DNA from: a virus
IMG/VR virus record: IMGVR_UViG_3300023296_001674
Length of the DNA stretch: 25,260 nucleotides
Direction: 5' to 3' (one strand)
A program made the translations under genes and the position numbers. Position 1 is the stretch's first letter, and every line of letters begins with the position of its first letter. The notes under the pieces are model-generated. The model was not told the DNA's origin and made no database searches. It was given only the letters and a program-made list of their open reading frames with translations. Shown piece after piece: positions 7,308 to 20,711 of this stretch.

Positions 7308-7391
7308 GGACGGTGATGTTAAGACTATGGCTGGGCCAGCGCAAGCCTCTTAAGCTTGTATAAAAGAGTTCGATTCTCTCACCGTCTTCCA
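7308..7391 (+). tRNA. tRNA, anticodon CUU (second Lys-like copy), 84 nt with about 9 extra nt in the D region
   Basis: Acceptor ggacggt/accgtct, anticodon stem caagc/gcttg, loop ctcttaa, T-arm TTCGATT. Confidence 0.5.
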
Positions 7392-7457
7392 ATTATGCAG
7401 GCCATAGATGTTCCCTTTGTCCATTATTGGGAACTGTGGATGAAAACAAAAACGAAA

Positions 7458-7527
7458 GCAGGGTTAATGGACTGTGTGTAAGTTTTGTGATTAAAAGGGA
7501 TGGTGCAAATCCAATTCCCCTGCGCCA
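7458..7527 (+). tRNA. degenerate tRNA-like gene (70 nt), weak T-arm
   Basis: Acceptor gcagggt/cccctgc 6/7 with encoded CCA; body related to the fragment at 9244. Confidence 0.3.
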
Positions 7528-7531
7528 AATT

Positions 7532-7604
7532 TGTTTGATCGTCTTTGGAATACAAGATACCGTTGTCGAAGGCGGAGACGTTGGTTCGAATCCAACTTGA
7601 ACAC
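7532..7604 (+). tRNA. tRNA without encoded CCA; ambiguous anticodon loop (canonical numbering gives GUC; only a 6- or 8-nt loop pairs well)
   Basis: Acceptor tgtttga/ttgaaca 7/7, T-arm gttggTTCGAATccaac. Confidence 0.5.
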
Positions 7605-7694
7605 TTATTGTTAGTAATGATTTTATGTACATAAATGATTTGCTAGGCGAAAGCCAATAGTTTGCTGGTTCTATTTCTTAAAAATCCTCTTATG

Positions 7695-7770
7695 GTAGGT
7701 GTAGTGTTAACGGTTAGCACGTCAGACTGTGACTCTGAAAGTGCCGGTTCAAATCCGGTCATTTACCCCA
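7695..7770 (+). tRNA. tRNA-His, anticodon GUG
   Basis: Anticodon stem tcaga/tctga, loop ctgtgac, T-arm gccggTTCAAATccggt. Confidence 0.8.
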
Positions 7771-7854
7771 AATTTAATGCTGCTTGAGTTCAGGGTTCCA
7801 AGTAGATATTGTGGCTAAACCTAGCCGGTTCTAGCGTGATAATAAATTTTTAAT

Positions 7855-7930
7855 GGCTACGTAGTAATCTGGGATTACGGTGCACTGTCGATGCACGTCG
7901 AGGAGGGTTCAATTCCCTTCGTAGCCGCCA
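7855..7930 (+). tRNA. tRNA-Asp, anticodon GUC
   Basis: Acceptor ggctacg/cgtagcc perfect, anticodon stem gtgca/tgcac, loop ctgtcga. Confidence 0.8.
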
Positions 7931-7932
7931 AT

Positions 7933-8004
7933 ACCCCAGCCGATGCATTCGGACTCGAGTTTTCGAAACTTGACGGGAAGGTTTGATTCCTTCTTGGGGT
8001 GCCA
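7933..8004 (+). tRNA. compact tRNA (72 nt) with a miniature D-arm, anticodon UCG-like (Arg)
   Basis: Acceptor accccag/ttggggt, T-arm gaaggTTTGATTccttc, loop tttcgaa. Confidence 0.5.
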
Positions 8005-8120
8005 ATTTAAAGAACGAGGGTGTAAACCGGTAGGAACTTACGTTGAACGGGATTTGCGGCAAAACCTACTTGCCAATTAACCTGTGATTTTAATAGTCGG
8101 TAGCACCCCGCAGAAATAAT

Positions 8121-8195
8121 GGTCTATTCGTATAGTGGCTAATACACCGGATTGTCGATCCGGGAACGAGAGTTCAATTCTCTCATAGACCGCCA
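8121..8195 (+). tRNA. tRNA-Asp, anticodon GUC (second copy)
   Basis: All four stems perfect: ggtctat/atagacc, gtat/atac, ccgga/tccgg, gagag/ctctc. Confidence 0.85.
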
Positions 8196-8200
8196 ATTAA

Positions 8201-8278
8201 GGCCCATCGGTCCAGCATGGAGTGGACATTTCCCTGTCACGGAAAAGATCACCGGTTCAAGTCCGGTATGGGTCGCCA
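8201..8278 (+). tRNA. tRNA, anticodon GUC-like (third copy), 10-nt D-loop
   Basis: Acceptor ggcccat/atgggtc, anticodon stem tttcc/ggaaa, loop ctgtcac. Confidence 0.7.
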
Positions 8279-8286
8279 AAATTCAA

Positions 8287-8362
8287 TTCAGATGACCAAG
8301 CAAGTGAACGGGACCGCCTGTTAAGCGGATATTGCAGGGAGCGTTACCCTGATCTGGAGCCA
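8287..8362 (+). tRNA. tRNA-Asn, anticodon GUU, non-canonical T-loop agcgtta
   Basis: Acceptor ttcagat/atctgga, loop ctgttaa, T-stem caggg/ccctg. Confidence 0.7.
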
Positions 8363-8991
8363 ATAACTTTATATTTTTTGTCCCATTCATTTATTCGATG
8401 GTATAAATCATATAATGATAAACTTGAATGACGATTTTTAGATGAATTTTCTGGCTGTGGCATTATCTTGCAGTTCGCTGGATGTGATATATGATTTGGG
8501 TCTATTTTGTTTACAAATCCATCATGTACACTATACATGTGATCTCTTGTTAATCCGTTTTTATTTTTGGTACTATGATACATGCCCTGTTGATGTATCA
8601 TTATAAAATCAAATTCTTCTGGAAATGTTTGAAATGAAAATATAAATTTACATTGTTCTTTATATTTTATCTTCTCAATCATGTATTCTTGTGGTGTCAC
8701 CCTCATGGCATTTGTGCAAGTAACTGCACAACTTCTTCCGCAATAATATTCACGAGTTCCGGTTATAGGGCTAAATTTATTATTACATGTTGGATTTTTA
8801 CACTCGATTAGTCGTTTTTGATATTTTGTTAAATTTTTTACCGATATTTCTTTTTTGGTGAATATGCAACTACATGTAATATGTGATATTTTACCGTTGC
8901 TTTTGCCATGCATACGTGAATGACCATTCAATGCCATTAAGGATTTAAATTGATTATCGCATATATTACATGTATAAATATCTTTAGACAT
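8344..8991 (-). CDS. HNH-family homing endonuclease paralog (216 aa from the MSKDIYTCNIC start)
   Basis: The ORF track extends further, but GGAGG SD precedes the ATG at 8991; same conserved C-terminal core. Confidence 0.7.
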   Translation of the reverse strand: MSKDIYTCNICDNQFKSLMALNGHSRMHGKSNGKISHITCSCIFTKKEISVKNLTKYQKRLIECKNPTCNNKFSPITGTREYYCGRSCAVTCTNAMRVTPQEYMIEKIKYKEQCKFIFSFQTFPEEFDFIMIHQQGMYHSTKNKNGLTRDHMYSVHDGFVNKIDPNHISHPANCKIMPQPENSSKNRHSSLSLYDLYHRINEWDKKYKVIGSRSG

Positions 8992-9080
8992 TATCAACCT
9001 CCATTGGTTGTTATAGTTTAGAAGATATGGGGAATTCCAGTTCTCTATATCTTCGTTAGTATTTATCAATAACATATTAT

Positions 9081-9166
9081 TCGGATATAGGAGAATTGGT
9101 AGACCCAGAAGATTGTTAATCTTCCGCAGCAATGCATTCCAGGTTCGAGTCCTGGTATCCGAGCCA
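9081..9166 (+). tRNA. type-II-like tRNA (86 nt, Leu-like D-arm GAATTGGTAGA, variable-arm hairpin) whose anticodon loop reads GUU
   Basis: Acceptor tcggata/tatccga perfect, anticodon stem gaaga/tcttc, loop ttgttaa, T-arm ccaggTTCGAGTcctgg. Confidence 0.65.
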
Positions 9167-9167
9167 A

Positions 9168-9240
9168 TAACACCGTAGCGTAGAAAATAGTTACTTCGTT
9201 TCACTCACGACTGGAATGGGTTCGATTCCCATGCCCTGCG
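9168..9240 (+). tRNA. tRNA-like gene with D, anticodon and T arms but no matching 5' acceptor strand; no CCA
   Basis: T-arm atgggTTCGATTcccat; its 3' strand gccctgc pairs only with the downstream fragment at 9244. Confidence 0.35.
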
Positions 9241-9243
9241 TAA

Positions 9244-9272
9244 GCAGGGTTTAGTGTAATGGTAGCACAGTA
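9244..9272 (+). pseudogene. tRNA 5' fragment (acceptor gcagggt plus D-arm), complementary to the 3' end of the upstream tRNA-like gene
   Basis: gcagggt TT AGTG TAATGGTA GCAC, then no anticodon or T arm. Confidence 0.35.
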
Positions 9273-9353
9273 TATCTCTATTTTCGTTTTTTACTCGGTG
9301 TTGTTATTAATAAATAGAATTATACAAATTATTAGATTGGAGTTGTTATTTAA

Positions 9354-9677
9354 ATGAGTGACGAACGACGAAATAGTTCCAGATTTTCGACTGGGCGTGT
9401 ATCATATTTACGATTGAACGATTATTATTTTCCATTGGTTGATATTAGTGATGATGGATTTTTTGCGGAATGCAGTGATGGTTCATTGAGTATTGGCGAT
9501 GTTGTTGATATTGAAATACATATCAGTGATCGACATGGAATAGCTACATTTAACACTGAAACAGAGATACTGCGTGTTGGCGGTAGATTTATTGCAGGAA
9601 AATGGGATTTAGAATTAAACAGGGCTACGGATTGCGTTAAAACTTATTTTGACAATAGGCACGCACAAGTAGCATAA
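9354..9677 (+). CDS. hypothetical protein (107 aa)
   Basis: SD ggag upstream of ATG. Confidence 0.55.
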   Translation: MSDERRNSSRFSTGRVSYLRLNDYYFPLVDISDDGFFAECSDGSLSIGDVVDIEIHISDRHGIATFNTETEILRVGGRFIAGKWDLELNRATDCVKTYFDNRHAQVA

Positions 9678-9684
9678 TACAAAT

Positions 9685-9759
<75 letters not shown>

Positions 9760-9849
9760 TATCGATGCGTAGTGTTAAGTTACTTCGATTTTTTTTAAAT
9801 AAAAAACCCAAAAACTCTTAATATGTCTTTTTCACGATGTTGATTTCAT

Positions 9850-9923
9850 AGGGGTATCGTATAGTGGTAATACGGTGGATTCCAAACTCACAGACCGGGG
9901 TTCGATCCCTCGTTCCCCTGCCA
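9850..9923 (+). tRNA. tRNA-Trp, anticodon CCA
   Basis: D-stem gtat/atac, loop ttccaaa, T-arm cggggTTCGATCcctcg. Confidence 0.75.
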
Positions 9924-9939
9924 ATTTAACGAGAATAAC

Positions 9940-11166
9940 ATGCATTTTATAATAAGTATCGATAGTGTATCAACGGATAGTCGGCATTATGACTGTGCCA
10001 AAAGTGATGAAAACTGTTGGCTTGATATATACGATGGCAATATCTATAACGATACTATATTAACCAATGCATTTTCATATAAAAACAAAACGATAAAACT
10101 TGATAAAGGTTGGCATACATTAGACCGCGACAAAGATGTTGTATGGTTTAAGGGTTATTCAACAGAAGCAAGATTGATTGATAGGGTTGAAGCCCGTAAT
10201 TATTCATCAATGGATGGAAATTATTGTTTTATTGTGTTTGATAAAACGACAGAATGTATTAACATATATCATGATACCAATCGTGGATTTGGTATATATT
10301 ATACAGATTCTATTATAACCAATTTATATACAATCAAAACATGCGTTAAGTTTGACGGGTGTATCATGGTAGATCACAATGACGAAATAATTGTTTCATC
10401 GTTACAGACAACGTTCACATTGCCTGATATAATTAAAGACAAATCTATTGACGATATGGCTGCTATTATAGCGCCTATGATGATTAAGAAAATCGAAGGA
10501 TTTATGAAATATAATAATGTGGTTGATTTAGAAATACAAGCAACTGGCGGTTTAGATACATTAACGGTGCGTGCATTATTAGATATCTGCGCGATTGATT
10601 ATAAATTGATTGATATAAAACCATTTAAAGATGGATGCAACTGGACTAATGATACAAATTCAATGATGGATATATTATCAAAATATCATTGGGGATTTCA
10701 GCAATGCAATTATTATGATGATATTACATATGTTGCCACTGGTTTTTGGGGCGATGAGTTATTGATGCGCAATCCGCTTCAAGTTCATTGGATATTGAAT
10801 CATTATGATATTGATTTATCGAATGAATATACAAAGCACCCTGATTCATATATGCTAGGATATTTTCAACAAGCGTATAAAGAGAAACTTATAGAACGCG
10901 ATAAAATATTTTCCAATGAAAATGAATTATATCAATATTCATTAGATTATGCACTTGATGAACCACAGATAACGCATGTTGATAATGTTATAATGTTTTC
11001 ACCATTTAAGGGTATTGACATATATATGAAAACACTCAATATGACGAATGAGGCAATATTAGAACAGGTTATAAATGGTGCACTGCAAAAGAAAATTATA
11101 TACGATATTAATCCTAAGTTATTGGATTGCTTAGAAAAATATAAAAATAGAAGAATACCAGTGTAA
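9940..11166 (+). CDS. asparagine-synthetase-like protein (408 aa): AsnB-type block GNYCFIVFD...IYHDTNRGFGIYY and PP-loop-like TGGLDT, but no N-terminal catalytic Cys
   Basis: Motif recall of AsnB (MFAFALYD...GRDHLGIIPLYMGY; SGGLDS). Confidence 0.5.
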   Translation: MHFIISIDSVSTDSRHYDCAKSDENCWLDIYDGNIYNDTILTNAFSYKNKTIKLDKGWHTLDRDKDVVWFKGYSTEARLIDRVEARNYSSMDGNYCFIVFDKTTECINIYHDTNRGFGIYYTDSIITNLYTIKTCVKFDGCIMVDHNDEIIVSSLQTTFTLPDIIKDKSIDDMAAIIAPMMIKKIEGFMKYNNVVDLEIQATGGLDTLTVRALLDICAIDYKLIDIKPFKDGCNWTNDTNSMMDILSKYHWGFQQCNYYDDITYVATGFWGDELLMRNPLQVHWILNHYDIDLSNEYTKHPDSYMLGYFQQAYKEKLIERDKIFSNENELYQYSLDYALDEPQITHVDNVIMFSPFKGIDIYMKTLNMTNEAILEQVINGALQKKIIYDINPKLLDCLEKYKNRRIPV

Positions 11167-11228
11167 TATACCCCGCCCGAAAAGTAAAAATAGCTGTTAA
11201 GTATTTCATAAATAAGCATAAATACTAT

Positions 11229-11498
11229 ATGGATAATAGTACATTAATAGCGTTAGGAAGTTTGTTGTTTGCCATGATTGGTGGATTTTGGGGTGTCATA
11301 ACATACATCCTTGGAATCATCAAGGTGGAAAACGTTGAACGTCGTGGTGTCCAAGAAAAATTATATATGCGCGATGATGTAGCCAAAGATGTAATGAACG
11401 AAAGTTTAACAGAAGTAAAAAGTACCATCCGTGATACGAATGATAGACTCATACGTGTAGAAACAATATTATATGAAAGAACTGATAGAACAAAATAA
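11229..11498 (+). CDS. small membrane protein (89 aa), one N-terminal TM helix
   Basis: Hydrophobic segment LIALGSLLFAMIGGFWGVITYILGII. Confidence 0.45.
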   Translation: MDNSTLIALGSLLFAMIGGFWGVITYILGIIKVENVERRGVQEKLYMRDDVAKDVMNESLTEVKSTIRDTNDRLIRVETILYERTDRTK

Positions 11499-12108
11499 AA
11501 TATGGTTTTTAAGCAAAACGGTAATACGTTGTATAAATAGTTATATGGTTGATTTAAGAAAGAGTTTGCAAACACCAAAAGTTTGCTGTATTGAATGTAA
11601 AACAATATTTAGAACTAATCATTTTGTTAGACACTCGAAGAAGCGATGTATTGAGTGGAAAAAGAAAAACGGCATGATCCCAAAAGGGAAGCGTGGCGGT
11701 TGGAATAAAGGATTAACGAAAATGACTAGTTCGTTGGTCAAAAAAGGAACCGATACTTATCGTCGCCGTTATGAAAATGGTGAATATACACGACGCACAC
11801 AAACCGATGATATAAAGAAACAATATTGGCAAGATTGTAAATTTAAATTCAATGTTTATAATTATCCTGAAATATTTGACTTAAATTTACTCGATAAATT
11901 TGGGTGGTATCATCCTGTAGAAAATCCAAGTGGCGTAAGTAGAGATCATATTATTTCTGTATCATATGGATGGAAAAATGGTATAGATTCGAATATTATT
12001 AATCATATAGCCAATTGTAAATTGATGATTCATTTAGAAAATAACAAAAAAAATAATCGATCTGATTTATTATTAGAAGAATTATTACAAAAAATACACT
12101 CTATGTAG
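11473..12108 (+). CDS. HNH-family homing endonuclease paralog (211 aa)
   Basis: SGVSRDHIISVSYGWKNGIDSNIINHIANCKLM core; N-terminal CxxC pairs. Confidence 0.7.
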   Translation: MKELIEQNKIWFLSKTVIRCINSYMVDLRKSLQTPKVCCIECKTIFRTNHFVRHSKKRCIEWKKKNGMIPKGKRGGWNKGLTKMTSSLVKKGTDTYRRRYENGEYTRRTQTDDIKKQYWQDCKFKFNVYNYPEIFDLNLLDKFGWYHPVENPSGVSRDHIISVSYGWKNGIDSNIINHIANCKLMIHLENNKKNNRSDLLLEELLQKIHSM

Positions 12109-12139
12109 GGGTGGTGTGAATCTGAACCCTTACTCCAAT

Positions 12140-12213
12140 GTTCCGTTGACAGAATGGTTATGTGCGTGGCTGCAACCCGCGTTATCCCGGTTCGATTCCG
12201 GGACGGAACTCCA
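12140..12213 (+). tRNA. tRNA-Cys, anticodon GCA
   Basis: Acceptor gttccgt/acggaac perfect, anticodon stem cgtgg/ccgcg, loop ctgcaac, T-arm cccggTTCGATTccggg. Confidence 0.75.
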
Positions 12214-12221
12214 ATACATAT

Positions 12222-12296
12222 GCCCGGTTCGTCCAACGGTTAGGACACTCTCCCGATAAGAGAGGAATAGTGGTTCGATTCCACTACTGGGTACCA
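12222..12296 (+). tRNA. tRNA-Ile, anticodon GAU
   Basis: D-stem gtcc/ggac, anticodon stem ctctc/gagag, loop ccgataa, T-arm agtggTTCGATTccact. Confidence 0.8.
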
Positions 12297-12317
12297 ATCA
12301 AACAATTTGACCTTAAT

Positions 12318-12391
12318 GGTCCGTTAGCTTAATAGAAAAGCACATGGCTGATAACCGTGCGACGGTGGAGCGTAACCATCACGGACTACCA
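12318..12391 (+). tRNA. tRNA, anticodon GAU (second Ile-like copy), non-canonical T-loop agcgtaa
   Basis: Acceptor ggtccgt/acggact, D-stem gctt/aagc, loop ctgataa. Confidence 0.65.
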
Positions 12392-12507
12392 ATTATGACA
12401 TGATAGTTTAAACAGCTTATTAAATCCATGGATTGTGAGCAAAAGTAGAACATGCCCGTATTCGGGGCAAGATGAGGTGAAATGCCTTGAATGTCGCCAA
12501 GTTTAAT

Positions 12508-12581
12508 GCGGGTATCGTATAATGGAATTACTACACATTGCCTATGTGTAGACGGGGGTTCGATTCCCCCTACCCGCTCCA
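12508..12581 (+). tRNA. tRNA, anticodon GCC (second Gly copy)
   Basis: Acceptor gcgggta/tacccgc perfect, anticodon stem acaca/tgtgt, loop ttgccta, T-arm gggggTTCGATTccccc. Confidence 0.75.
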
Positions 12582-12593
12582 ATAAATAGAAAT

Positions 12594-12848
12594 ATGAACA
12601 GAGAAACATTTGCCAATGCGTTAGAATACTATAGAAATATCAATATCCCACATGGATTTGATACGTGGGCTTATTTTGATGATATGCCGCCTGTTTTAAA
12701 GGAACGTGTTCGTGAATCGATGTCAAATAGAAATAGTGTAGCCATACATCAGATATTCAATGACGATGGCATGGAAGTGGCTATTGCAGTTCTAAATTTT
12801 TTAGACGAAACTGAAAAAGCGCAATATTATAAAACATACGACGATTAA
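12594..12848 (+). CDS. hypothetical protein (84 aa)
   Basis: ORF directly after the tRNA, AT-rich leader. Confidence 0.5.
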   Translation: MNRETFANALEYYRNINIPHGFDTWAYFDDMPPVLKERVRESMSNRNSVAIHQIFNDDGMEVAIAVLNFLDETEKAQYYKTYDD

Positions 12849-12851
12849 TAT

Positions 12852-12938
12852 AGAAGTACTTTGTATTGGTGAACTCAGCAGTCTCCAAAACTGTGTCGCA
12901 TTTGTGACTGGTAGGTTCGAATCCTACTACTTCTGCCA
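12852..12938 (+). tRNA. type-II-like tRNA (87 nt, variable-arm hairpin) whose anticodon loop reads CCA (Trp-like)
   Basis: Acceptor agaagta/tacttct perfect, anticodon stem gcagt/actgt, loop ctccaaa, T-arm gtaggTTCGAATcctac. Confidence 0.65.
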
Positions 12939-12993
12939 ATTTAACTCCCCATGATAAATATCATTTGTGACATAACGCGAATGGGGTAATATC

Positions 12994-13326
12994 ATGATGG
13001 ACGATGATACAAAAAACAGGTTCATAAAAACATTCAGTGATTATATCACAATGATTAAAGGCAAGCATGAATGTGCAAGACTTGTTGATATTAAAATGAT
13101 GGATTTATATACAATTGCGCCACATATATGCATTGTAGATATAGAACATCCATCGTTACGAAAGAAAATTATATTTTTTGGAACACAATTGGTATTAAAC
13201 GCTAATGCTGATTTAACTGGAACATACCTCGACTATGATGAATTAAACATTGATGATATATCCTTTCCATTATATGGTGATGGTGATATTATTGATCACA
13301 TTATAAGTGTTTCATTCAAAAATTAA
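12994..13326 (+). CDS. hypothetical protein (110 aa)
   Basis: ORF with weak SD. Confidence 0.5.
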   Translation: MMDDDTKNRFIKTFSDYITMIKGKHECARLVDIKMMDLYTIAPHICIVDIEHPSLRKKIIFFGTQLVLNANADLTGTYLDYDELNIDDISFPLYGDGDIIDHIISVSFKN

Positions 13327-13329
13327 TAT

Positions 13330-13400
13330 ACCTCCGCTGATGGTTCAGACATAAGCTTGCGAAGCTTGTTGGGAAAGTTCGATTCTTTTCGGGGGTTCCA
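13330..13400 (+). tRNA. compact tRNA (71 nt), anticodon loop ttgcgaa (GCG, Arg-like)
   Basis: Acceptor acctccg/cgggggt, T-arm gaaagTTCGATTctttt. Confidence 0.5.
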
Positions 13401-13441
13401 ATATTGTTATAGCTATGGAAATTAGTTCCTTCTTATCCCAA

Positions 13442-13509
13442 CCTGTAGGTCGTAGGTTCGAATCCTGCTCCTCGCGCCAATTATGCGGGGATAGCTCAGT
13501 GGTAGAGCA
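13442..13509 (+). tRNA. split/permuted-looking tRNA locus: 3' portion (13442-13479, anticodon 3' stem through encoded CCA), then attat, then 5' portion (13485-13509, acceptor plus D-arm GCGGGGATAGCTCAGTGGTAGAGCA)
   Basis: The 3' acceptor tcctcgc pairs 7/7 with the downstream gcgggga; anticodon 3' stem cctgt pairs with the downstream actgg. Confidence 0.4.
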
Positions 13510-13562
13510 ACTGGCAATTTTACTGGTTCCAATTATTATAGCAATATTTTATTAAATAGGTC

Positions 13563-13757
13563 ATGAACAAGTATGACACGGCGTATAGAAATCGCATTGC
13601 TGCCCAACGCAAACAGTGGGCAAACAATACGAAACAGCGTTTGTGGAATAAACGAATAAAGATATTGTATATTGCATGTGTATGTATTATAATCTCTTTA
13701 TCGGTTGCGGCAGAAGTATTTGGATATTTAAATATAATATTTGGTTTTTTGTTGTAA
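13563..13757 (+). CDS. small membrane protein (64 aa)
   Basis: C-terminal hydrophobic segment; weak SD. Confidence 0.35.
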   Translation: MNKYDTAYRNRIAAQRKQWANNTKQRLWNKRIKILYIACVCIIISLSVAAEVFGYLNIIFGFLL

Positions 13758-13765
13758 CATGATAT

Positions 13766-13843
13766 TGACTAGTAGCTCAGTGGTTTAGAGCGGGGAGTTC
13801 TAAACTCTCGACAGCGTTGGTTCAAATCCAACCTGGTCAACCA
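13766..13843 (+). tRNA. tRNA with anticodon CUA (amber-suppressor-like); U1-A72 acceptor
   Basis: D-arm GCTCAGTGGTTTAGAGC, anticodon stem gggag/ctctc, loop ttctaaa, T-arm gttggTTCAAATccaac, CCA encoded. Confidence 0.6.
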
Positions 13844-13850
13844 ATACTAA

Positions 13851-14022
13851 GCGGGTATCGTATAATGGTATTATCGCAGCCTTCCATGTGATATGTTTAA
13901 CATATCTCAGGTTGAGCCATTTATTGGCTCCTTGAAGGTCGAGGGTTCAGACCCCATCCGGTTTAAGCCCGGTAGACCAACTTAAGCTGATGACGGGAGT
14001 TCGATTCTCCCTACCCGCTCCA
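13851..14022 (+). tRNA. tRNA-Gly(UCC)-like gene interrupted by a structured insertion of about 98 nt in the anticodon loop (about 13887-13984)
   Basis: 5' part gcgggta TC GTATAATGGTATTAT... and 3' part ...GACGGGAGTTCGATTCTCCCTACCCGCTCCA match the Gly tRNAs at 9685 and 12508; the 7/7 acceptor pairing exists only across the insertion. Confidence 0.5.
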
Positions 14023-14041
14023 ATATTTGATAAATAGTTAT

Positions 14042-14818
14042 ATGAAATGTAAACAATGTAAAATATCATTTACCCCTATCCCACAAGCAAAAAAAGGTAT
14101 ATTTTGTTCGCACGATTGTCATAATGTATACCAGCGCGTAAATACTCGTGAGCAATACTTAAAAAATCCCAAACGGTGTATTTTTTGTGATGATATAATA
14201 TCATATAGAGAAAATATAAAAGTGGCGAAGTTTTGCAATAGGTCTTGCGGGGCAAAATATAATAATAAAAGACGTACAGAATGCGGATACACCCCAAGTC
14301 ATAAAAAATGGTCTAGTGGTAAAATATCTGCTAAAATGTCATCAAAAATGCGCCGTGCGGATATCAAATCAAGTGTCGTGTTTGGTGATTTTACTATAAT
14401 AACATTTGCTATATGCAATATTACGAATAAACCATATGTTCTACAAACACCGCATGGTGGTATAAAGCAAATATCACCATATATTAAATCATCTAAACAG
14501 ATATATTATGAGCAAGCCAAATTTCGATTTAATGTATATGACTATCCAGATATATTTGATATAACACTTTTAGAAAAATATGGATGGTATACATGTCCCG
14601 GCAAGAAACGAAAAAATCAAAAAAAGAATATAAATGGTGTAAGTAGAGATCATATAATATCTATCAATGATGGATTTAAGAATGGGTATGATCCATATAT
14701 TTTAGCACATCCTGCTAATTGTCGATTGATTAAACAAGTGGATAATGTTAAAAAATTAGATAAATCTAATATGTCATATGACGAGTTATTGATTAACATA
14801 AAACAATGGAATGGATAG
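14042..14818 (+). CDS. HNH-family homing endonuclease paralog (MKCKQCK start; the ORF track's TTG at 14027 overlaps the tRNA), TAG stop
   Basis: CNRSCGAKYNNKRR motif and NGVSRDHIISINDGFKNGYDPYILAHPANCRL core. Confidence 0.7.
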   Translation: MKCKQCKISFTPIPQAKKGIFCSHDCHNVYQRVNTREQYLKNPKRCIFCDDIISYRENIKVAKFCNRSCGAKYNNKRRTECGYTPSHKKWSSGKISAKMSSKMRRADIKSSVVFGDFTIITFAICNITNKPYVLQTPHGGIKQISPYIKSSKQIYYEQAKFRFNVYDYPDIFDITLLEKYGWYTCPGKKRKNQKKNINGVSRDHIISINDGFKNGYDPYILAHPANCRLIKQVDNVKKLDKSNMSYDELLINIKQWNG

Positions 14819-14825
14819 ACTATTC

Positions 14826-14900
14826 GCCCCTATAGTACAATGGTTAATATGATCGCCCGGTAAGCGATAGATGAAAGTTCGATTCTTTCTAGAGGCACCA
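14826..14900 (+). tRNA. tRNA-Thr, anticodon GGU
   Basis: Anticodon stem atcgc/gcgat perfect, loop ccggtaa, T-arm gaaagTTCGATTctttc. Confidence 0.8.
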
Positions 14901-14912
14901 ATAAATAACAAT

Positions 14913-15728
14913 ATGACAATGACACCACCAAATATTATAATTTATAGTAATCCACGTTCAGGAACCACATTGCTTCATCATACATTATTATTATTTTTTC
15001 AAGAATATTATGGTGATTATTATTGTGATTTACATGAATTCTTTACAACATCGCATATGACAACGAGACATCGTAATAATATAGATGAAATAAATTCCAT
15101 TACGTATGAACAGAATAACAATATATTAATAAAGACATACAAGCCAGCAGATACCGAAAGCAATGACTTCGAAGAAGAATTGCAACAACGAATTTCACAA
15201 TGGAACAATTGTGTAATAGCTGATAACAATCAGCCGTTTATAACAAAAATATTTCACAAAAATTTGATTGATCACAATTTTTCAAATACAATATTTGATC
15301 ATTCATTAAATTTGGTTCTTGTAAGAAAAAACGTACAAGATATGATATTGAGTTTTATAATATCAAATAGCAACAATAACTGGTTTTATTATGAAAATGA
15401 AAATATAGAAACATTGCGCGGAAGTTTGATTGGTGATATAGATATAATACGCATTCATTTGGAACGCAATAAATTATTTCTTGAAAATATACCCAATATA
15501 CCCAATGCATTAATCATTGATTATGATGAACTTAATGACTATGAATATTTTTATCAAGTTATTATAGATATGGGCATTGTTGATATTCGTGAATTGCATG
15601 CCATGGAAATATTTGATAACATACAGCTAAAACGTAAAATTATTCCAACACCATATACAATGGATCGTATAGATTATTTTAAGAATGCCAATGAAATAAA
15701 AACACTCATGGATGAATATTGTTCTTGA
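14913..15728 (+). CDS. sulfotransferase-like protein (PRSGTT PAPS-binding-like motif near the N-terminus), 272 aa from the ATG at 14913
   Basis: NPRSGTTLLH resembles the sulfotransferase 5'-PSB loop; the ORF track start at 14871 overlaps a tRNA. Confidence 0.45.
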   Translation: MTMTPPNIIIYSNPRSGTTLLHHTLLLFFQEYYGDYYCDLHEFFTTSHMTTRHRNNIDEINSITYEQNNNILIKTYKPADTESNDFEEELQQRISQWNNCVIADNNQPFITKIFHKNLIDHNFSNTIFDHSLNLVLVRKNVQDMILSFIISNSNNNWFYYENENIETLRGSLIGDIDIIRIHLERNKLFLENIPNIPNALIIDYDELNDYEYFYQVIIDMGIVDIRELHAMEIFDNIQLKRKIIPTPYTMDRIDYFKNANEIKTLMDEYCS

Positions 15729-15752
15729 CAATTTGTATCATTATGTTATTAT
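15725..15752 (+). promoter_or_regulatory. sigma70-like promoter TTGACA-N16-TATTAT
   Basis: TTGACA 15725-15730, TATTAT 15747-15752. Confidence 0.5.
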
Positions 15753-15778
15753 AAACTCTTGAAATATGGAGAATTCCA

Positions 15779-16024
15779 ATGGATGATTATGATAAAATGT
15801 TTGATAATATGATAGAAGGATTCAAATCTGGTAGATTTAATGCTAAGGATTGGAATTTTTGTATTGATATAAATCTTGCTAATAAAAAAGATGTTTATGA
15901 TGGTTATATCATGGGAACTGGTGCTGAACAATGCGCTGGTTGTAAATCGTTTTCGACAAGGGAAGAACTTGTTGATTTGTTTACCAAAGTAGGCGCAAGG
16001 TTTATAATGAATGGAGTTGGTTGA
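15779..16024 (+). CDS. hypothetical protein (81 aa)
   Basis: SD tggaga upstream of ATG. Confidence 0.55.
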   Translation: MDDYDKMFDNMIEGFKSGRFNAKDWNFCIDINLANKKDVYDGYIMGTGAEQCAGCKSFSTREELVDLFTKVGARFIMNGVG

Positions 16025-16329
16025 TGGCACCTCATAGAGTACGACAATTGCATCGACCACGAAAAAAACCATATGGATTTGAAATATATGAAGATTCAAC
16101 ACCACTTAGTCTTGCCAATATTAGAAAGTGGTGCAAAAGTGTTATTGGTAATCTCGGCGAGCCACGCGGATGGTCATTAAAAGATGATACCATTTATATT
16201 AGAGGTCAAAAACGTGGTGGAAAACCCATGATTTATTTTATGGAAGAAAAACACGCTTTAGCATTTAAAAAAATGATAAACACAACAAATGTTGATGATA
16301 TACTTCTTTTTAAATTTATGTATTATTAA
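16021..16329 (+). CDS. hypothetical protein (102 aa), tandem paralog A
   Basis: Shares R.RQ..RPR..PY.F.IY.D...W...IYFM......AFK with the next ORF; ATGA overlap. Confidence 0.55.
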   Translation: MMAPHRVRQLHRPRKKPYGFEIYEDSTPLSLANIRKWCKSVIGNLGEPRGWSLKDDTIYIRGQKRGGKPMIYFMEEKHALAFKKMINTTNVDDILLFKFMYY

Positions 16330-16586
16330 TGGCAAACCGAATAAGACAAATGGTTCGCCCTAGAATAATGCCGTATGCGTTTAAAATTTATAGTGATTTT
16401 ATGGATCGACGTAATGTACATAAAGATCACAACAAACAAATGGCAATATATGGATGGGTTAAAGACACGTTTGGTGAATCTAACTATGATGTATGGACTT
16501 CGCGGCGTGAACCCACACGATATGCAACAATGATATATTTTATGGATGATACATCCGCCATGGCATTTAAGCTGCAATGGATGTAA
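16329..16586 (+). CDS. hypothetical protein (85 aa), tandem paralog B
   Basis: Paralog of 16021-16329; TAATG overlap. Confidence 0.55.
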   Translation: MANRIRQMVRPRIMPYAFKIYSDFMDRRNVHKDHNKQMAIYGWVKDTFGESNYDVWTSRREPTRYATMIYFMDDTSAMAFKLQWM

Positions 16587-16799
16587 ATAAAGCGTGATGA
16601 TCGGGTATCTAGTTCGATTTTTATCGGGATACCAAAATTTTTAACCCAAATAATAGGAGTTCGACATGAAAACGGGATAACTTAGCGGCGGTTTGCCGCA
16701 CACATGGATTACAGCTAAAATCAAGAAATTTAAACTTTAATTAAGGAGATACACAATGAGTAATGAAAACTCAAGGGTATCGCAGAAAGTTTAGACAGT

Positions 16800-17129
16800 A
16801 TGGATAAAGCTGCGCTAAAAACACTTTCCGATACTCTTAATCGGATATGGGGAATCCCTGAACCAAGGGTCTATTATCCGAATAAACATTTCGAAAAACC
16901 TGAACCAGTTGAACAGACAATGTTCTCAGTGTTCATTCTTGACGCTGGTCCTAAACGGATTAACGTCATTAAAGAAATCAGATCAATCTTAGGATTGACC
17001 CTGAAAGAATCAAAGGATTTTGTTGATAATATAGACAAGAGCCTTGTTCAAGAAGACTTAGAAAAATGGGATGCAGATGCATTAGCCGAAACATTATCAA
17101 ATGTTGGAGCAACTGTTGAAGTTTCTTAA
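16800..17129 (+). CDS. ribosomal protein bL12 (L7/L12) C-terminal-domain homolog fused to a novel N-terminal segment (109 aa)
   Basis: FSVFILDAGPKRINVIKEIRSILGLTLKESKDFVDN...DADALAETLSNVGATVEV matches the bL12 CTD pattern. Confidence 0.6.
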   Translation: MDKAALKTLSDTLNRIWGIPEPRVYYPNKHFEKPEPVEQTMFSVFILDAGPKRINVIKEIRSILGLTLKESKDFVDNIDKSLVQEDLEKWDADALAETLSNVGATVEVS

Positions 17130-17172
17130 AATATACCAGTTTGGTGTCTGGGGTATAAACAAAACACCACCT

Positions 17173-17225
17173 TCCTCTTTCGTATAGTGGTTATGATCTT
17201 TGTGTCGCAATCAGAGGACGATTTT
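17173..17225 (+). pseudogene. tRNA 5' fragment (D-arm plus anticodon arm, no T-arm), diverged copy of the tRNA at 17331
   Basis: ttcgtatagtggttatgatctttgtgtcgcaatcagaggacg versus ttcgtatagtggtcattatctctgtgtcgtactcagaggacgg. Confidence 0.3.
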
Positions 17226-17241
17226 TTGTGGAGGCAATTAT

Positions 17242-17325
17242 GCGCGTAGCCGGTATGTTGGTACTACCACTGGTCTTCCAAACCAGCGCGAAAGCATTGG
17301 GGTTTGATTCCCCCTACCCGCTCCA
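17242..17325 (+). tRNA. tRNA, anticodon UCC (Gly-like), with an 11-nt extended variable region (84 nt)
   Basis: Acceptor gcgcgta/tacccgc 6/7, D-stem ggta/tacc, anticodon stem ctggt/accag, loop cttccaa, T-arm ggggTTTGATTcccc. Confidence 0.6.
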
Positions 17326-17330
17326 ATCAA

Positions 17331-17405
17331 GCCCCATTCGTATAGTGGTCATTATCTCTGTGTCGTACTCAGAGGACGGCAGTTCGATTCCGCCATGGGG
17401 CACCA
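17331..17405 (+). tRNA. tRNA, anticodon CGU-like (Thr); 9-nt loop alternative
   Basis: Acceptor gccccat/atggggc perfect, anticodon stem ctctg/cagag, T-loop TTCGATT, CCA encoded. Confidence 0.65.
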
Positions 17406-17471
17406 ATTACATATTGCATTATATCCTATTTTTTTATATAATAAATAAAAAGAACAATAGGACACGAAACT

Positions 17472-18023
17472 ATGCGCGGAACATTAGAAGTGATTACTGG
17501 CCCAATGTTTGCCGGTAAGACGACAGAAATAATAAAACGATTATTATGGTCAAAACATCAAGGTAAATCAACAATTATATACAAACCAGCAATGGATGAT
17601 AGATATAGTGAAACTGAAATAGTTACACATACCAAATTTTCATACGAAGCAACATCCATCATTGATAGTTTTAATATCAATCCAACATACGATCATTATT
17701 TTTTTGATGAAATACAGTTTCATGATAAAAATATTGTTCCATCTATAACTAAATTATTAGATGAAGGAAAAAATGTAACGGTGGCTGGTTTAGACGCTGA
17801 TTATAAAGGTGTTGCATTTGCGAACACTGCTACGTTAATGGCGATGGCAGACGAAGTATTTAAGATAAAATCGCATTGTAGTTTATGTGGCAAAGATGCT
17901 GCTAAAACATTTAAAACTGGTTCGACAAGCGACCAGCGCATAGAATTGGGTGAAAATGACTTATACCGTGCCAGATGTAATGAGCATTGGTATGTATCAG
18001 GAACTGACGATAGTTTTTCTTGA
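17472..18023 (+). CDS. tdk: thymidine kinase (TK1 family)
   Basis: P-loop GPMFAGKTTE, C-terminal CxxC...CxxH zinc ribbon; SD agga. Confidence 0.8.
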   Translation: MRGTLEVITGPMFAGKTTEIIKRLLWSKHQGKSTIIYKPAMDDRYSETEIVTHTKFSYEATSIIDSFNINPTYDHYFFDEIQFHDKNIVPSITKLLDEGKNVTVAGLDADYKGVAFANTATLMAMADEVFKIKSHCSLCGKDAAKTFKTGSTSDQRIELGENDLYRARCNEHWYVSGTDDSFS

Positions 18024-18048
18024 CAATATTTTTTATATAGCATATAAT
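18020..18048 (+). promoter_or_regulatory. sigma70-like promoter TTGACA-N17-TATAAT
   Basis: TTGACA 18020-18025, TATAAT 18043-18048, upstream of the desaturase gene. Confidence 0.6.
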
Positions 18049-18079
18049 GTTAGTATACAAAATTTTTAGGAGATATTAA

Positions 18080-19063
18080 ATGGATAACAACAATTACAAC
18101 GATTTAAAACAGCGTTTGGTTAATGCAGGATGTTTCGAACGAGCGACATCGCATTATGTTCTACGTATTACAGCAATTCTAATTGCTTATGTGGGAGCAT
18201 ATTTTGTTCTGCTTACACAGCCACTAGGATTGGTTGCAGTGGGTGCATTGATTATTGCAGCCTTTGCCAGCGTTCAGGCTGGTTTCATTTCACACGATGC
18301 TGGTGATGGCGGTATTACATCAAATAAGATGCTATCTACCGGTATGCGACAATTCTTTTTATCGTTTGTTACTGGTGTGAGTAGTTCATATTTTCATGCA
18401 CTACATAAAGTGCATCACAAAACAATGTTTAAAGGATCATCGAAATCATCCGACACAGTTTCAGAAAATGAATACGAAGGCAAATGGTTGAAGAAATTAG
18501 TTTCACGTGATGGTTTGTTATTCATGGTAACGATGGTTACATTACGGGGATTCACATTCAAATTTGAAAGTGTAAAATATATGCTTAAACACGCCAATAA
18601 AACCGCCGCAGATCAACTGTTGGTGGGATTGCACGTTGTAGCATGGCTGATCGTTCCAATGATGATTATTGGACCAGTAGCCATTCTAAACTATGCATTA
18701 TTGACGTTGTTGATTGGACCTTATATCGGAACGGTATTGGTTATTAATCATGCCGGTATGGTAACAGCAAACCGACAAATGCATTTGCCTAAATTTGAAC
18801 GCGTAGTAAATACTACACGCAATCTTGGTGACGGCGTTTGGAACAATCTGTTCTTCGGTGGTGTAAACAACCATATTGAACACCATTTGTTTCCGGGTGT
18901 GCCAGTGCCAAATCTAGGTGAAGCTAGAAAGATTACTGAAGCCTTTTGTGAAGAACGTGGTATTAAATACACCAAAGCTTCATATTTCAGCGCATTAATC
19001 GAAGCCAAAGACCATTTCAAGGGTTTGTCTTCACAGAGATTAGTTGCTGAAGCACTCAACTAA
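18080..19063 (+). CDS. membrane fatty-acid-desaturase-family protein (desaturase / carotenoid-ketolase-like His boxes)
   Basis: HDAGD, HKVHH and HIEHHLFPGVP boxes with several TM segments; SD aggag. Confidence 0.65.
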   Translation: MDNNNYNDLKQRLVNAGCFERATSHYVLRITAILIAYVGAYFVLLTQPLGLVAVGALIIAAFASVQAGFISHDAGDGGITSNKMLSTGMRQFFLSFVTGVSSSYFHALHKVHHKTMFKGSSKSSDTVSENEYEGKWLKKLVSRDGLLFMVTMVTLRGFTFKFESVKYMLKHANKTAADQLLVGLHVVAWLIVPMMIIGPVAILNYALLTLLIGPYIGTVLVINHAGMVTANRQMHLPKFERVVNTTRNLGDGVWNNLFFGGVNNHIEHHLFPGVPVPNLGEARKITEAFCEERGIKYTKASYFSALIEAKDHFKGLSSQRLVAEALN

Positions 19064-19073
19064 GGGAAACTAT

Positions 19074-19550
19074 ATGTTTAAATTTAATGTATGTAATTAC
19101 AGTGATTCACTGTATTCAATGGACAACTATACCAAGGCTATTGGTATAGTTGATCCAGATGAAAAAGTAACACCATCAGAAAAATATCATGTTGCACGAT
19201 GCCACGATATAGTAATGCAGGAACACCCTTGGGTGGCTCCCACAATAGACCAGTTTGTCGCAATTATGAATTTTGCAGAAGATTTTACAGACGATGATGT
19301 TGTAATGATTCATTGCTCTGCTGGTATATCACGCAGCACTGCAACTGCCATATTGTTATTAATGTTGCATGGCGCTGACGAAGAAGAAGCATTTAATGCT
19401 GTTGAACAAAATAGACCAAACATGAATCCAAACACATTGATTCTTCGCTTTGCTGATGAATTATTAGGAATGGATGGCGGTTTGATTGAATATCATAAAC
19501 AATGGATGGCGAAACGGGTTATTAAACCAGTTAGTTTCGCAGGACAATAA
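19074..19550 (+). CDS. dual-specificity (Cys-based) protein phosphatase
   Basis: CX5R signature HCSAGISRS; SD aaggga before the ATG at 19074 (ORF track start 19044 is less likely). Confidence 0.7.
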   Translation: MFKFNVCNYSDSLYSMDNYTKAIGIVDPDEKVTPSEKYHVARCHDIVMQEHPWVAPTIDQFVAIMNFAEDFTDDDVVMIHCSAGISRSTATAILLLMLHGADEEEAFNAVEQNRPNMNPNTLILRFADELLGMDGGLIEYHKQWMAKRVIKPVSFAGQ

Positions 19551-19562
19551 AAAGGAAATAAT

Positions 19563-19697
19563 ATGCATCGCGATAAATTAAAAACAGACCCAGCCAATAA
19601 AGAGTATATTGACGGTTGGAATAGAATCTTCAATAAAAAAGAAGAAGTAGTTAAACCAAAAAAGAAAACGGCTAAGAAAAAACCTGCTAAGAAATAA
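19563..19697 (+). CDS. small lysine-rich protein (44 aa), absent from the ORF track
   Basis: Strong SD aaaagga upstream of ATG; MHRDKLKTDPANKEYIDGWNRIFNKKEEVVKPKKKTAKKKPAKK. Confidence 0.45.
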   Translation: MHRDKLKTDPANKEYIDGWNRIFNKKEEVVKPKKKTAKKKPAKK

Positions 19698-19704
19698 AAT
19701 TCTA

Positions 19705-19732
19705 TTGACATATATCAACAATAGTGTATTAT
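19705..19732 (+). promoter_or_regulatory. sigma70-like promoter TTGACA-N16-TATTAT
   Basis: TTGACA 19705-19710, TATTAT 19727-19732. Confidence 0.5.
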
Positions 19733-19738
19733 TAACTT

Positions 19739-19987
19739 ATGATAGATTTAGGATACATATTGGTAGCATTCATATGCTCTACCCCGATTGATACACCAGA
19801 TGGGCACCACAAGTGCTACAGTGGTTCATACGGATGGCATGCGACTGTTAGCCAATGTAGGGCTGCTGGCAAGGAGAAGCTAGCAGTATGGGAACAGCAC
19901 GGCTTACGTTTAGTCGCGGGAGTATGTAGAACACCCTTACCAGACGATGTTGAATATGAACAAGCGAGAAAAGAAAAATCATTTTAA
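19739..19987 (+). CDS. hypothetical protein (82 aa)
   Basis: ORF downstream of a consensus promoter. Confidence 0.5.
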   Translation: MIDLGYILVAFICSTPIDTPDGHHKCYSGSYGWHATVSQCRAAGKEKLAVWEQHGLRLVAGVCRTPLPDDVEYEQARKEKSF

Positions 19988-20000
19988 AAGGATATTATGA

Positions 20001-20279
20001 ATGAATAAAATTTATGAATTTCATTGGGAAGTTGGTAGAATGGGTGACGTTGAAGGTTTGTTCGTTGCCGATGATGCTGACGTTGCTAATTTGATCGGTA
20101 AAGAAATTTACTTTGGTGAAATTCTTGGAAAACATTCCGAAGTTTATGGAACGTTGGAAAAGGGCGATCTTGTTGTGAAATCAGATGATCCAGAATTTGT
20201 TGAAAAATTCATCGAAATAATGGGTTACGGAACAGTATCTGGTTATAATCCATTTGATTATTATGATCCAGATCAATAA
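20001..20279 (+). CDS. hypothetical acidic protein (92 aa)
   Basis: SD aaagga upstream of ATG. Confidence 0.55.
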   Translation: MNKIYEFHWEVGRMGDVEGLFVADDADVANLIGKEIYFGEILGKHSEVYGTLEKGDLVVKSDDPEFVEKFIEIMGYGTVSGYNPFDYYDPDQ

Positions 20280-20667: not shown

Positions 20668-20711
20668 CAAATAATACAAAGGAAGATAACAATATCAAGT
20701 GAATAACATAT

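What the first reader, a model, noticed from the sequence alone, without database searches (positions are those of the whole stretch)
13766..13843. Putative amber-suppressor tRNA (anticodon CUA) in a genome that also uses TAG stops
The gene has a canonical cloverleaf with U1-A72 and loop ttCTAaa closed by gggag/ctctc. A CUA anticodon reads UAG. Several ORFs in this window end in TAG: 1602-1880, 14042-14818, 22193-23101, 23769-24368 and the 12-codon uORF at 16757. The TAG of 1602-1880 is followed by 24 further in-frame sense codons. The options are a stop-codon-recoding strategy (TAG to Gln or another residue late in infection), programmed read-through extensions, or a nonfunctional suppressor-like relic.
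Basis: partly seen in the sequence, partly recalled or inferred. Interest (0 to 1): 0.7.

Follow-up and report, generated by a model that had tools for sequence, protein, structure and literature searches.

The report
Amber-suppressor tRNA in a megaphage tRNA array
The window holds a real, intact tRNA gene that reads the stop codon UAG, inside a very large tRNA cluster of an uncultured giant phage; every part of the genome I could read still uses TAG as a normal stop, so this is a known kind of phage feature and not yet evidence of a changed genetic code.

Summary
Positions 13766-13843 (+) encode a canonical 78-nt tRNA with anticodon CTA (13800-13802), by ARAGORN and Rfam (57.1 bits). It is one unit of a same-strand array of at least 31 tRNA genes. 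The array belongs to an uncultured phage with a contig of at least 570,549 bp that also encodes EF-G, IF3, L7/L12 and AspRS.

I could read 49 kb (73 called genes, 8.6% of the contig). There TAG behaves as an ordinary terminator:
- It ends 10 of 73 genes, against 11 for TGA.
- It sits at natural C-termini.
- No TAG joins two sizeable ORFs.

The only relative found on a long contig (IF3 78% identical) has a syntenic array, but no CUA tRNA in the part I could see.

Amino-acid identity is unresolved between Gln (U1-A72, G2-C71, G10) and Lys (A73; anticodon stem and T arm identical to a phage tRNA-Lys).

Best reading (0.45): a biochemically active suppressor in a genome that looks standard-code, giving partial UAG read-through with short tails. 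Late-gene TAG recoding (0.25) cannot be excluded, because 91% of the genome was out of reach. This is a new member of a known kind, of moderate to low interest.

The parts
13766..13843 (+). Amber-suppressor tRNA gene (78 nt, cloverleaf, U1-A72, A73, encoded CCA)
   Evidence: ARAGORN; Rfam tRNA 57.1 bits; arms read from the sequence
13800..13802 (+). Anticodon CTA (reads UAG) in loop TT-CTA-AA
13841..13843 (+). Encoded 3' CCA, followed by the ATA trailer shared with the other array tRNAs
   Evidence: Repeat families D1/D6, CCA-AT(A/T); tRNA 3' ends listed
3394..25210 (+). Same-strand tRNA array that contains the suppressor: 27 ARAGORN genes, further Rfam-only genes, and degenerate tRNA-like pieces
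13851..14022 (+). Next gene downstream: tRNA-Gly(UCC) interrupted by a 100-nt insertion in the anticodon loop
   Evidence: Rfam tRNA 38.9 bits with a 100-nt insert
14042..14818 (+). HNH-like ORF ending in TAG, one of four paralogs in the array; read-through would run into tRNA-Thr at 14826
1611..1880 (+). TAG-terminated gene; 26 sense codons follow, then TAA TAA
11473..12108 (+). TAG-terminated HNH-like gene; the tail would run through tRNA-Cys
20307..20567 (+). TAG-terminated ORF; next in-frame stop after 5 codons
22193..23101 (+). DUF7275/DUF7277 gene ending in TAG at its natural C-terminus; TGA follows one codon later
   Evidence: Homologs align over residues 1-302; Pfam; stop context
23352..23561 (+). 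TAG-terminated ORF; next in-frame stop after 7 codons
23769..24368 (+). Truncated class II aaRS core (HisRS-like, 199 aa) ending in TAG; next stop after 8 codons

Best explanation
This is a genuine, structurally intact amber-suppressor tRNA. It is transcribed and matured with the rest of the megaphage's tRNA array. It is probably charged by a synthetase that reads U35, giving Gln or Lys. It then competes with RF1 at UAG.

The genome runs on the standard code as far as it can be read. The expected effect is therefore partial read-through of TAG-terminated genes, giving short C-terminal tails that nearby backup stops limit. It is not a change of genetic code.

It most likely arose by an anticodon point mutation in a Lys(CUU)- or Gln(CUG)-type array tRNA.

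**Shown:** the gene, its anticodon, its array context, and the use of TAG as a stop. **Inferred:** expression, charging, read-through and origin.
For: **TAG is a normal stop in what can be read.**
- In 49.15 kb (73 called genes) the stops are TAA 52, TGA 11, TAG 10.
- No TAG joins two sizeable ORFs on the coding strand.
- Long conserved genes are full length under code 11: EF-G 705 aa, AspRS 604 aa, ClpX 419 aa.
- TAG lies at natural ends. The DUF7275 protein aligns over residues 1-302 with homologs. IF3 is 171 aa and ends TAG-N-TAA in both this phage and its relative.

**Backup stops.** TAG-ended genes reach the next in-frame stop sooner: median 6 against 12 codons (one-sided p 0.045), and within one codon in 3 of 10 against 3 of 63 (p 0.03).

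**The tRNA looks processed like its neighbours.** It shares the array's 5' leader motif and its CCA-ATA trailer (families D6 and D10).

**Occurrence is sporadic.**
- The only relative found on a long contig has a syntenic array with no CUA tRNA in the 10 kb after IF3.
- About 200 tRNAs in other HNH-associated phage arrays include no clean CUA anticodon; one unassigned tRNA with a 4-base 'ctag' anticodon in L030 was not followed up.

**Precedent.** The jumbo phage phiKp24, described without any alternative code, carries a suppressor tRNA (PMC8386662).
Against: - Only 8.6% of the contig of at least 570,549 bp was readable, and it looks like an early or translation-gene region. Recoded phages often keep such regions compatible with the standard code (Borges et al. 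preprint).
- CUA suppressor tRNAs and intron-bearing tRNAs are both reported as common in jumbo phages that use alternative codes (PMC13037316). This array has intron-bearing tRNAs.
- Orthologous tRNAs differ by 25-35% between relatives whose proteins are about 78% identical. A tRNA that stays fully intact in such an array hints at selection for a function.
- The backup-stop statistics rest on 10 genes and on automatic gene calls.
Confidence: 0.45

Rival explanations
1. Stage-specific recoding. The suppressor is made from the early array, and later lets the phage translate late genes (structural, lysis) that carry in-frame TAG read as Gln, as in crAss-like, Lak and other code-15 phages.
For: - Suppressor tRNAs are strongly associated with recoded phages. 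They are reported in about 61% of jumbo phages that use alternative codes, and 77% of those phages have tRNA introns.
- The genome is low in GC (0.36).
- The tRNA is intact in a fast-changing array.
- The acceptor end looks Gln-like: U1-A72 with A73 occurs mostly in Gln among 243 phage-array tRNAs.
- The same type of CUA tRNA gave 7 hits in IMG/VR and none in 185,579 species genomes.
Against: - There is no in-frame TAG in 73 genes, and TAG is not depleted as a stop (10 against 11 TGA). The published evolutionary model expects TAG depletion before recoding.
- No RF2, GlnRS or other code-change partner lies in the 49 kb.
- The relative shows no CUA tRNA in the syntenic stretch.
Confidence: 0.25
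2. Inactive gene. The sequence looks like a tRNA, but it is not expressed, is misfolded, or is not aminoacylated, so it has no effect on termination. It would be a recent neutral anticodon mutant on its way to decay.
For: - The array holds many degenerate or fragmentary tRNA-like pieces.
- The predicted minimum-energy fold is not the cloverleaf.
- The visible part of the relative has no ortholog.
- The identity elements are mixed: U1-A72 with A73.
Against: - All four stems pair fully, and the conserved tertiary positions are present.
- At 57.1 bits it scores above most neighbours.
- It shares the processing motifs of the array.
- From established knowledge, amber suppressors with U35 are generally charged by GlnRS or LysRS in bacteria.
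Confidence: 0.15
3. A role outside the phage's own decoding. Examples: deliberate weakening of host UAG termination during takeover, buffering of nonsense mutations (for instance CAG to TAG), or a decoy for a tRNA-targeting host defence.
For: - Backup stops are enriched after the phage's own TAG stops.
- Phage tRNAs are known to counter anticodon nucleases (PMC10264068, PMC11464382, PMC11555353, listed).
- The tRNA body resembles a tRNA-Lys, and tRNA-Lys is a common nuclease target.
Against: Nothing here tests it directly. A CUA tRNA cannot replace a cleaved tRNA-Lys in decoding. No defence or counter-defence gene was identified next to it.
Confidence: 0.1
4. A pyrrolysine tRNA, as ARAGORN's label suggests.
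For: Only the CUA anticodon and ARAGORN's default naming.
Against: The cloverleaf is canonical: 5-bp anticodon stem, 9-nt D loop with GG, two bases between the acceptor and D stems, 6-nt variable loop, and a standard T loop. tRNA-Pyl has none of these. No pyl genes lie in the 49 kb.
Confidence: 0.01

Closest known systems
CUA suppressor tRNAs of TAG-recoded phages (crAss-like, Lak megaphages, other gut clades; Borges et al., Yutin et al., Devoto et al.)
   Same: A phage-encoded tRNA with a CUA anticodon, in a low-GC genome and a very large phage. It lies among standard-code-compatible genes, and the same array holds intron-bearing tRNAs.
   Different: No in-frame TAG was found in 73 genes. TAG is used as a terminator at a normal rate. 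No release factor or matching aaRS was seen. Seven IMG/VR CUA tRNAs with the same D arm all start with G1 and have unrelated acceptor stems, so this tRNA is not their ortholog.
Suppressor tRNAs carried by cultured jumbo phages not described as recoded, e.g. tRNA-Sup-TTA of Klebsiella phage phiKp24 (PMC8386662)
   Same: A suppressor-type tRNA within the tRNA set of a large phage for which no alternative code is described; its function is unknown.
   Different: The anticodon differs (TTA against CTA), and the phage lineages are unrelated.
Classical amber suppressors made by an anticodon point mutation (E. coli supE/glnV, CUG to CUA; T4 psu1+ from tRNA-Ser)
   Same: The CUA anticodon sits in an otherwise normal elongator tRNA. 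U1-A72, G2-C71 and G10 match tRNA-Gln identity elements (from established knowledge).
   Different: The discriminator is A73, not G73, and the 3-70 pair is A-U. No parental Gln or Lys gene with the same body exists in the window: the best paralog shares 53 of 78 bases.
Phage tRNA-Lys(UUU), e.g. Pseudoalteromonas phage J2-1 (MF988720)
   Same: It is the best database match: 78.9% over 71 nt, E 8e-6. The anticodon stem (GGGAG/CTCTC), T arm, D stem and A73 are identical.
   Different: The acceptor stem and the anticodon loop differ, and the next-best matches are Met, His and Arg tRNAs. Similarity therefore does not fix the isotype.

Membership tests
Canonical elongator tRNA (Rfam RF00005) | Cloverleaf with a 7-bp acceptor stem, D arm with GG, 5-bp anticodon stem, 7-nt loop with U33, and a T arm with a GTTCRA-type loop | tested here: met
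   57.1 bits against a threshold of 29; arms listed
Amber suppressor tRNA | Anticodon CUA at positions 34-36 | tested here: met
   ARAGORN and the Rfam alignment both place CTA at 13800-13802
Amber suppressor tRNA | Expressed, aminoacylated, and able to insert an amino acid at UAG | not testable with these tools
   Only indirect support: shared leader and trailer motifs and an encoded CCA
Phage TAG-to-Gln recoding (code 15) | In-frame TAG inside conserved genes | tested here: not met
   None in the 73 genes of the 49 kb that could be read. Late genes lie in the unread 91%, so this applies only to the region seen.
Phage TAG-to-Gln recoding (code 15) | TAG rare or absent as a true terminator | tested here: not met
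   TAG ends 10 of 73 genes, TGA 11; the C-termini match homologs
Phage TAG-to-Gln recoding (code 15) | Fragmented genes or low coding density under code 11, repaired under code 15 | tested here: not met
   Treating TAG as sense raises ORF content less than treating TGA as sense (ratios 1.20 and 1.56), and no coding-strand fusions appear. This covers the 49 kb only.
Phage TAG-to-Gln recoding (code 15) | Accessory code-change genes (RF2, GlnRS or similar) near the suppressor | tested here: not met
   The 49 kb holds AspRS, a HisRS-like fragment, EF-G, IF3 and L7/L12, but no release factor or GlnRS
tRNA-Gln-derived suppressor (supE type) | tRNA-Gln identity set: weak 1-72 pair, G73, G2-C71, G3-C70, G10, U35 | tested here: inconclusive
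   U1-A72, G2-C71, G10 and U35 are present. A73 and A3-U70 are not the E. coli set. In phage arrays, U1-A72 with A73 is mostly Gln. The best identity to any tRNA-Gln in the set is 64%.
tRNA-Lys-derived suppressor | A73, U35, and a body homologous to tRNA-Lys | tested here: inconclusive
   A73 and U35 are present. The anticodon stem and T arm are identical to a phage tRNA-Lys(UUU). The acceptor stem is unrelated, and the window's own Lys tRNAs are only about 64% identical.
tRNA-Pyl | 6-bp anticodon stem, short D loop without GG, 3-nt variable loop, one base between the acceptor and D stems | tested here: not met
   5-bp anticodon stem, 9-nt D loop with GG, 6-nt variable loop, and U8 A9

The most novel reading that the evidence does not exclude
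A megaphage lineage outside the known gut clades switches UAG from stop to sense late in infection, while its early genes still end in TAG and are shielded by nearby backup stops. Because the tRNA has a Lys-like body and A73, the inserted residue could be Lys rather than Gln, which would be a code variant not described for phages.
Probability: 0.2. Interest if true: 0.6.

Novelty: new member of a known kind. Interest (0 to 1): 0.32.

Why it matters
Suppressor tRNAs are the main handle by which phages are thought to switch genetic code during infection. It is much less clear what they do in phages that keep the standard code.

This case shows an intact suppressor in a genome of at least 570 kb whose visible genes use TAG as a normal stop. 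If the rest of the genome is also standard code, it is a clean example of a tolerated suppressor, or of the stage before recoding that the published evolutionary model proposes. If late genes do carry in-frame TAG, it extends stage-specific recoding to a new megaphage lineage. Either outcome can be decided from public data.

Tried and rejected
**Searches for the phage or close relatives**
- Megablast of the window against GenBank phages found nothing.
- An exact search for the suppressor's anticodon arm in IMG/VR found nothing.
- Neighbour proteins queried against IMG/VR gave nothing (sulfotransferase) or only 43-47% relatives without arrays (DUF7275).
- AspRS and ClpX against GenBank phages gave no close relative.

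**Attempts to reach the late genes**
- A 1265-aa concatenated query returned nothing. A 345-aa one returned hits only for its larger part. That used two of the three homolog searches.
- The region was extended only to -16,051..33,101 in window coordinates.

- I used the HNH alignment as query.

**Other look-ups and searches**
- Two more IF3 homologs turned out to be another huge phage without a nearby array, and a bacterium.
- Assigning an isotype by sequence similarity failed. The best matches are Lys, Met, His and Arg tRNAs at 71-83%.
- The promoter and terminator scan around the gene was no better than shuffled sequence.
- No HDV-like ribozyme or other Rfam family lies next to the tRNA.
- A paper search for the sample accession found nothing.
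- Crude code-11 against code-15 ORF statistics on short IMG/VR loci that carry CUA tRNAs did not discriminate.

Full report
**1. The observation**

ARAGORN finds 27 tRNA genes in the window, all on the + strand. One lies at 13766-13843, with anticodon cta at gene position 35. ARAGORN labels it tRNA-Pyl, but that is only its name for CUA. Rfam's tRNA model scores it 57.1 bits against a threshold of 29, eighth best of about 30 tRNA hits.

The sequence gives these arms:
- Acceptor stem UGACUAG/CUGGUCA, with U1-A72 and one G-U pair.
- U8 A9; D stem GCUC/GAGC; a 9-nt D loop with GG; G26.
- Anticodon stem GGGAG/CUCUC and loop UU-CUA-AA.
- A 6-nt variable loop and T arm GUUGG-UUCAAAU-CCAAC.
- A73 and an encoded CCA.

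The RNAfold minimum-energy fold (-25.9 kcal/mol) differs from the cloverleaf (-21.9). It pairs part of the D arm with the anticodon loop. It offers no alternative cloverleaf with a different anticodon.

The tail after 1878-1880 is 26 codons rather than 24, and is followed by TAA TAA.

**2. Where it sits**

*The phage.* The window has no close match among GenBank phages. Its proteins include thymidine kinase, a fatty-acid desaturase, a dual-specificity phosphatase, a sulfotransferase, a DUF7275/7277 protein shared with large myoviruses, and a truncated HisRS-like class II core. Exact-protein look-ups place the window on contigs of 74 kb and 570,549 bp. The flanks encode EF-G, IF3, ribosomal protein L7/L12, AspRS, ClpX, a Ro/TROVE protein and a 2'-5' RNA ligase-like protein. 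This is therefore an uncultured megaphage with many translation genes, of the sort described by Al-Shayeb et al. (PMC7162821). Its IF3 is closest, at about 40%, to Helicobacter and other Epsilonproteobacteria. That is only a weak hint about the host.

*The array.* Besides the 27 ARAGORN genes, the array contains:
- Rfam-only tRNAs, some carrying insertions. The next gene, 13851-14022, is a tRNA-Gly(UCC) with a 100-nt insert.
- Class-II-like tRNAs.
- Many tRNA-like 3' halves.

Nearly all of these end in an encoded CCA followed by AT(A/T). The suppressor shares that trailer, and it shares an AT-rich leader motif with regular members. This argues that it is processed with them.

**3. Is TAG a stop or a sense codon here?**

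I joined the flanks into 49.15 kb, window coordinates -16,051 to 33,101. One SNP separates the window from the Logan contig.

- *Stop usage.* The 73 called genes end in TAA 52 times, TGA 11 times and TAG 10 times.
- *ORF fusions.* Treating TAG as sense joins no two sizeable ORFs on the coding strand. It raises ORF content less than treating TGA as sense does.
- *Natural C-termini.* The DUF7275 protein aligns end to end with homologs. IF3 is 171 aa and ends TAG-N-TAA in both this phage and its relative.
- *Read-through tails.* Two tails would run straight into tRNA genes.
- *Backup stops.* TAG-ended genes reach the next in-frame stop sooner than other genes: median 6 against 12 codons (one-sided p 0.045), and within one codon in 3 of 10 against 3 of 63 (p 0.03). 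This is suggestive, but it rests on few genes.

**4. Relatives**

The only relative found on long contigs (IF3 78%, ClpX 81% identical) has the same gene order, and a tRNA array begins at the same place. In the 10 kb after its IF3 it has 16 tRNAs and no CUA anticodon. Its array continues past the end of what I could fetch.

Orthologous tRNAs in the two phages are only 65-75% identical, so the arrays change quickly. The relative's CAT tRNA has the same T stem and a long variable loop, and at 71% it is that tRNA's best match in the window. The acceptor and anticodon stems differ.

How common this type of tRNA is elsewhere:

| Collection | Query | Result |
|---|---|---|
| IMG/VR | Pattern for CUA tRNAs with this D arm | 7 hits, none orthologous (all G1, unrelated acceptor stems) |
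| 185,579 species genomes | Same pattern | 0 hits |
| Metagenomic phage arrays carrying homologs of the array's HNH gene | About 200 tRNAs examined | No clean CUA; one unassigned tRNA with a 4-base 'ctag' anticodon in L030, not followed up |

Such suppressors therefore look viral, and sporadic.

**5. Which amino acid?**

- *For Gln:* U1-A72, G2-C71, G10, C34 and U35. Among 243 phage-array tRNAs, U1-A72 marks Gln and Asn, and U1-A72 with A73 is mostly Gln.
- *For Lys:* A73 and U35. The best database match is a phage tRNA-Lys(UUU) with an identical anticodon stem, T arm and D stem.

Other near matches are Met, His and Arg tRNAs, so similarity does not settle the isotype. The structure rules out pyrrolysine. 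A single change from Lys(CUU) or Gln(CUG) would produce CUA, but no parent copy is present in the window.

**6. Interpretation**

Published surveys tie CUA tRNAs, and tRNA introns, to recoded phages. A jumbo phage described without any alternative code can also carry a suppressor. The region I could read shows none of the marks of recoding. It is, however, only 8.6% of the genome, and it looks like an early region, which recoded phages often keep standard.

| Reading | Weight |
|---|---|
| Active suppressor in an apparently standard-code genome, giving partial read-through limited by backup stops | 0.45 |
| Late-gene TAG recoding | 0.25 |
| Inactive or neutral variant | 0.15 |
| Other roles (host takeover, nonsense buffering, defence decoy) | 0.10 |
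| Pyrrolysine tRNA | 0.01 |

**7. Novelty and limits**

Phage suppressor tRNAs are well known, so this is a new member of a known kind in a new megaphage lineage.

The decisive test is gene prediction and homolog alignment over the whole public 570-kb contig. I could not run it, because look-ups were restricted to window proteins and to hits of three homolog searches. Two of those searches were largely lost to concatenated queries.

Noticed in passing
window 13851-14022 (+): tRNA-Gly(UCC) with a 100-nt insertion in the anticodon loop, directly after the suppressor (Rfam 38.9 bits). It is too short for a group I intron. ARAGORN does not call it, even in intron mode.
   Followed up: partly
window 13445-13511 (+): Partial match to the Y RNA-like family YrlA (32.4 bits, below the threshold of 69; E 2.9e-5 on 471 nt). 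It is a permuted tRNA-like module: T arm, closed acceptor-like stem, D arm. It fits with the phage encoding a Ro/TROVE protein.
   Followed up: partly
window coordinates -3410..-620 (L002 6037-8827); relative L017 8310-9887: The Ro/TROVE gene is one 525-aa ORF in the relative. In this phage it is three ORFs (250, 149 and 165 aa), with a 317-aa DUF7487 ORF inserted after the first piece. This may be a mobile insertion or an intron.
   Followed up: partly
window 6090-6854 (-), 8344-8991 (-), 11473-12108 (+), 14042-14818 (+): Four paralogous HNH-like ORFs lie inside the tRNA array. Homologs (31-51% identity) lie inside tRNA arrays of many unrelated metagenomic phages, which suggests a homing endonuclease family tied to tRNA clusters.
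   Followed up: partly
window 20329-20437 (+) and 20576-20667 (+): Two more tRNA genes carry insertions. ARAGORN in intron mode reads the first as tRNA-His(GTG) with an intron, although it has U1-A72 and G73. Both end in CAA instead of CCA.
   Followed up: no
window 7031-7064, 7363-7394, 7977-8007, 12911-12941, 13372-13403, 17295-17328 and others: Many tRNA-like 3' halves (T arm, acceptor strand, CCA-AT) are not called by any tRNA finder. One odd long-variable-arm tRNA at 12852-12938 has anticodon CCA with A1-U72 and G73.
   Followed up: partly
window 23769-24368 (+): A 199-aa truncated class II aaRS catalytic core, closest to HisRS, with no anticodon-binding domain. The overlapping next ORF has repeats that look MORN-like by eye (not scanned against Pfam) and is not the missing half.
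   Followed up: partly
window 16744-17129 (+): The ribosomal protein L7/L12 homolog has no Shine-Dalgarno sequence of its own. A strong AAGGAGA precedes a 12-codon uORF that ends in TAG four bases before the L12 ATG, in a different frame. This suggests coupled reinitiation.
   Followed up: no
flanks: L012 3066-5183, L002 8867-9382, L001 16365-18179: The phage encodes EF-G, IF3 and AspRS. Its IF3 is closest, at about 40%, to Helicobacter and other Epsilonproteobacteria, which is a weak hint about the host.
   Followed up: partly
window 4679-5014 (+): A 170-bp tandem duplication of a Lys-Val tRNA pair (93% identical). One copy is Lys(TTT)/Val(TAC) and the other Lys(CTT)/Val(AAC), so the anticodons have changed between the duplicated copies.
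   Followed up: no
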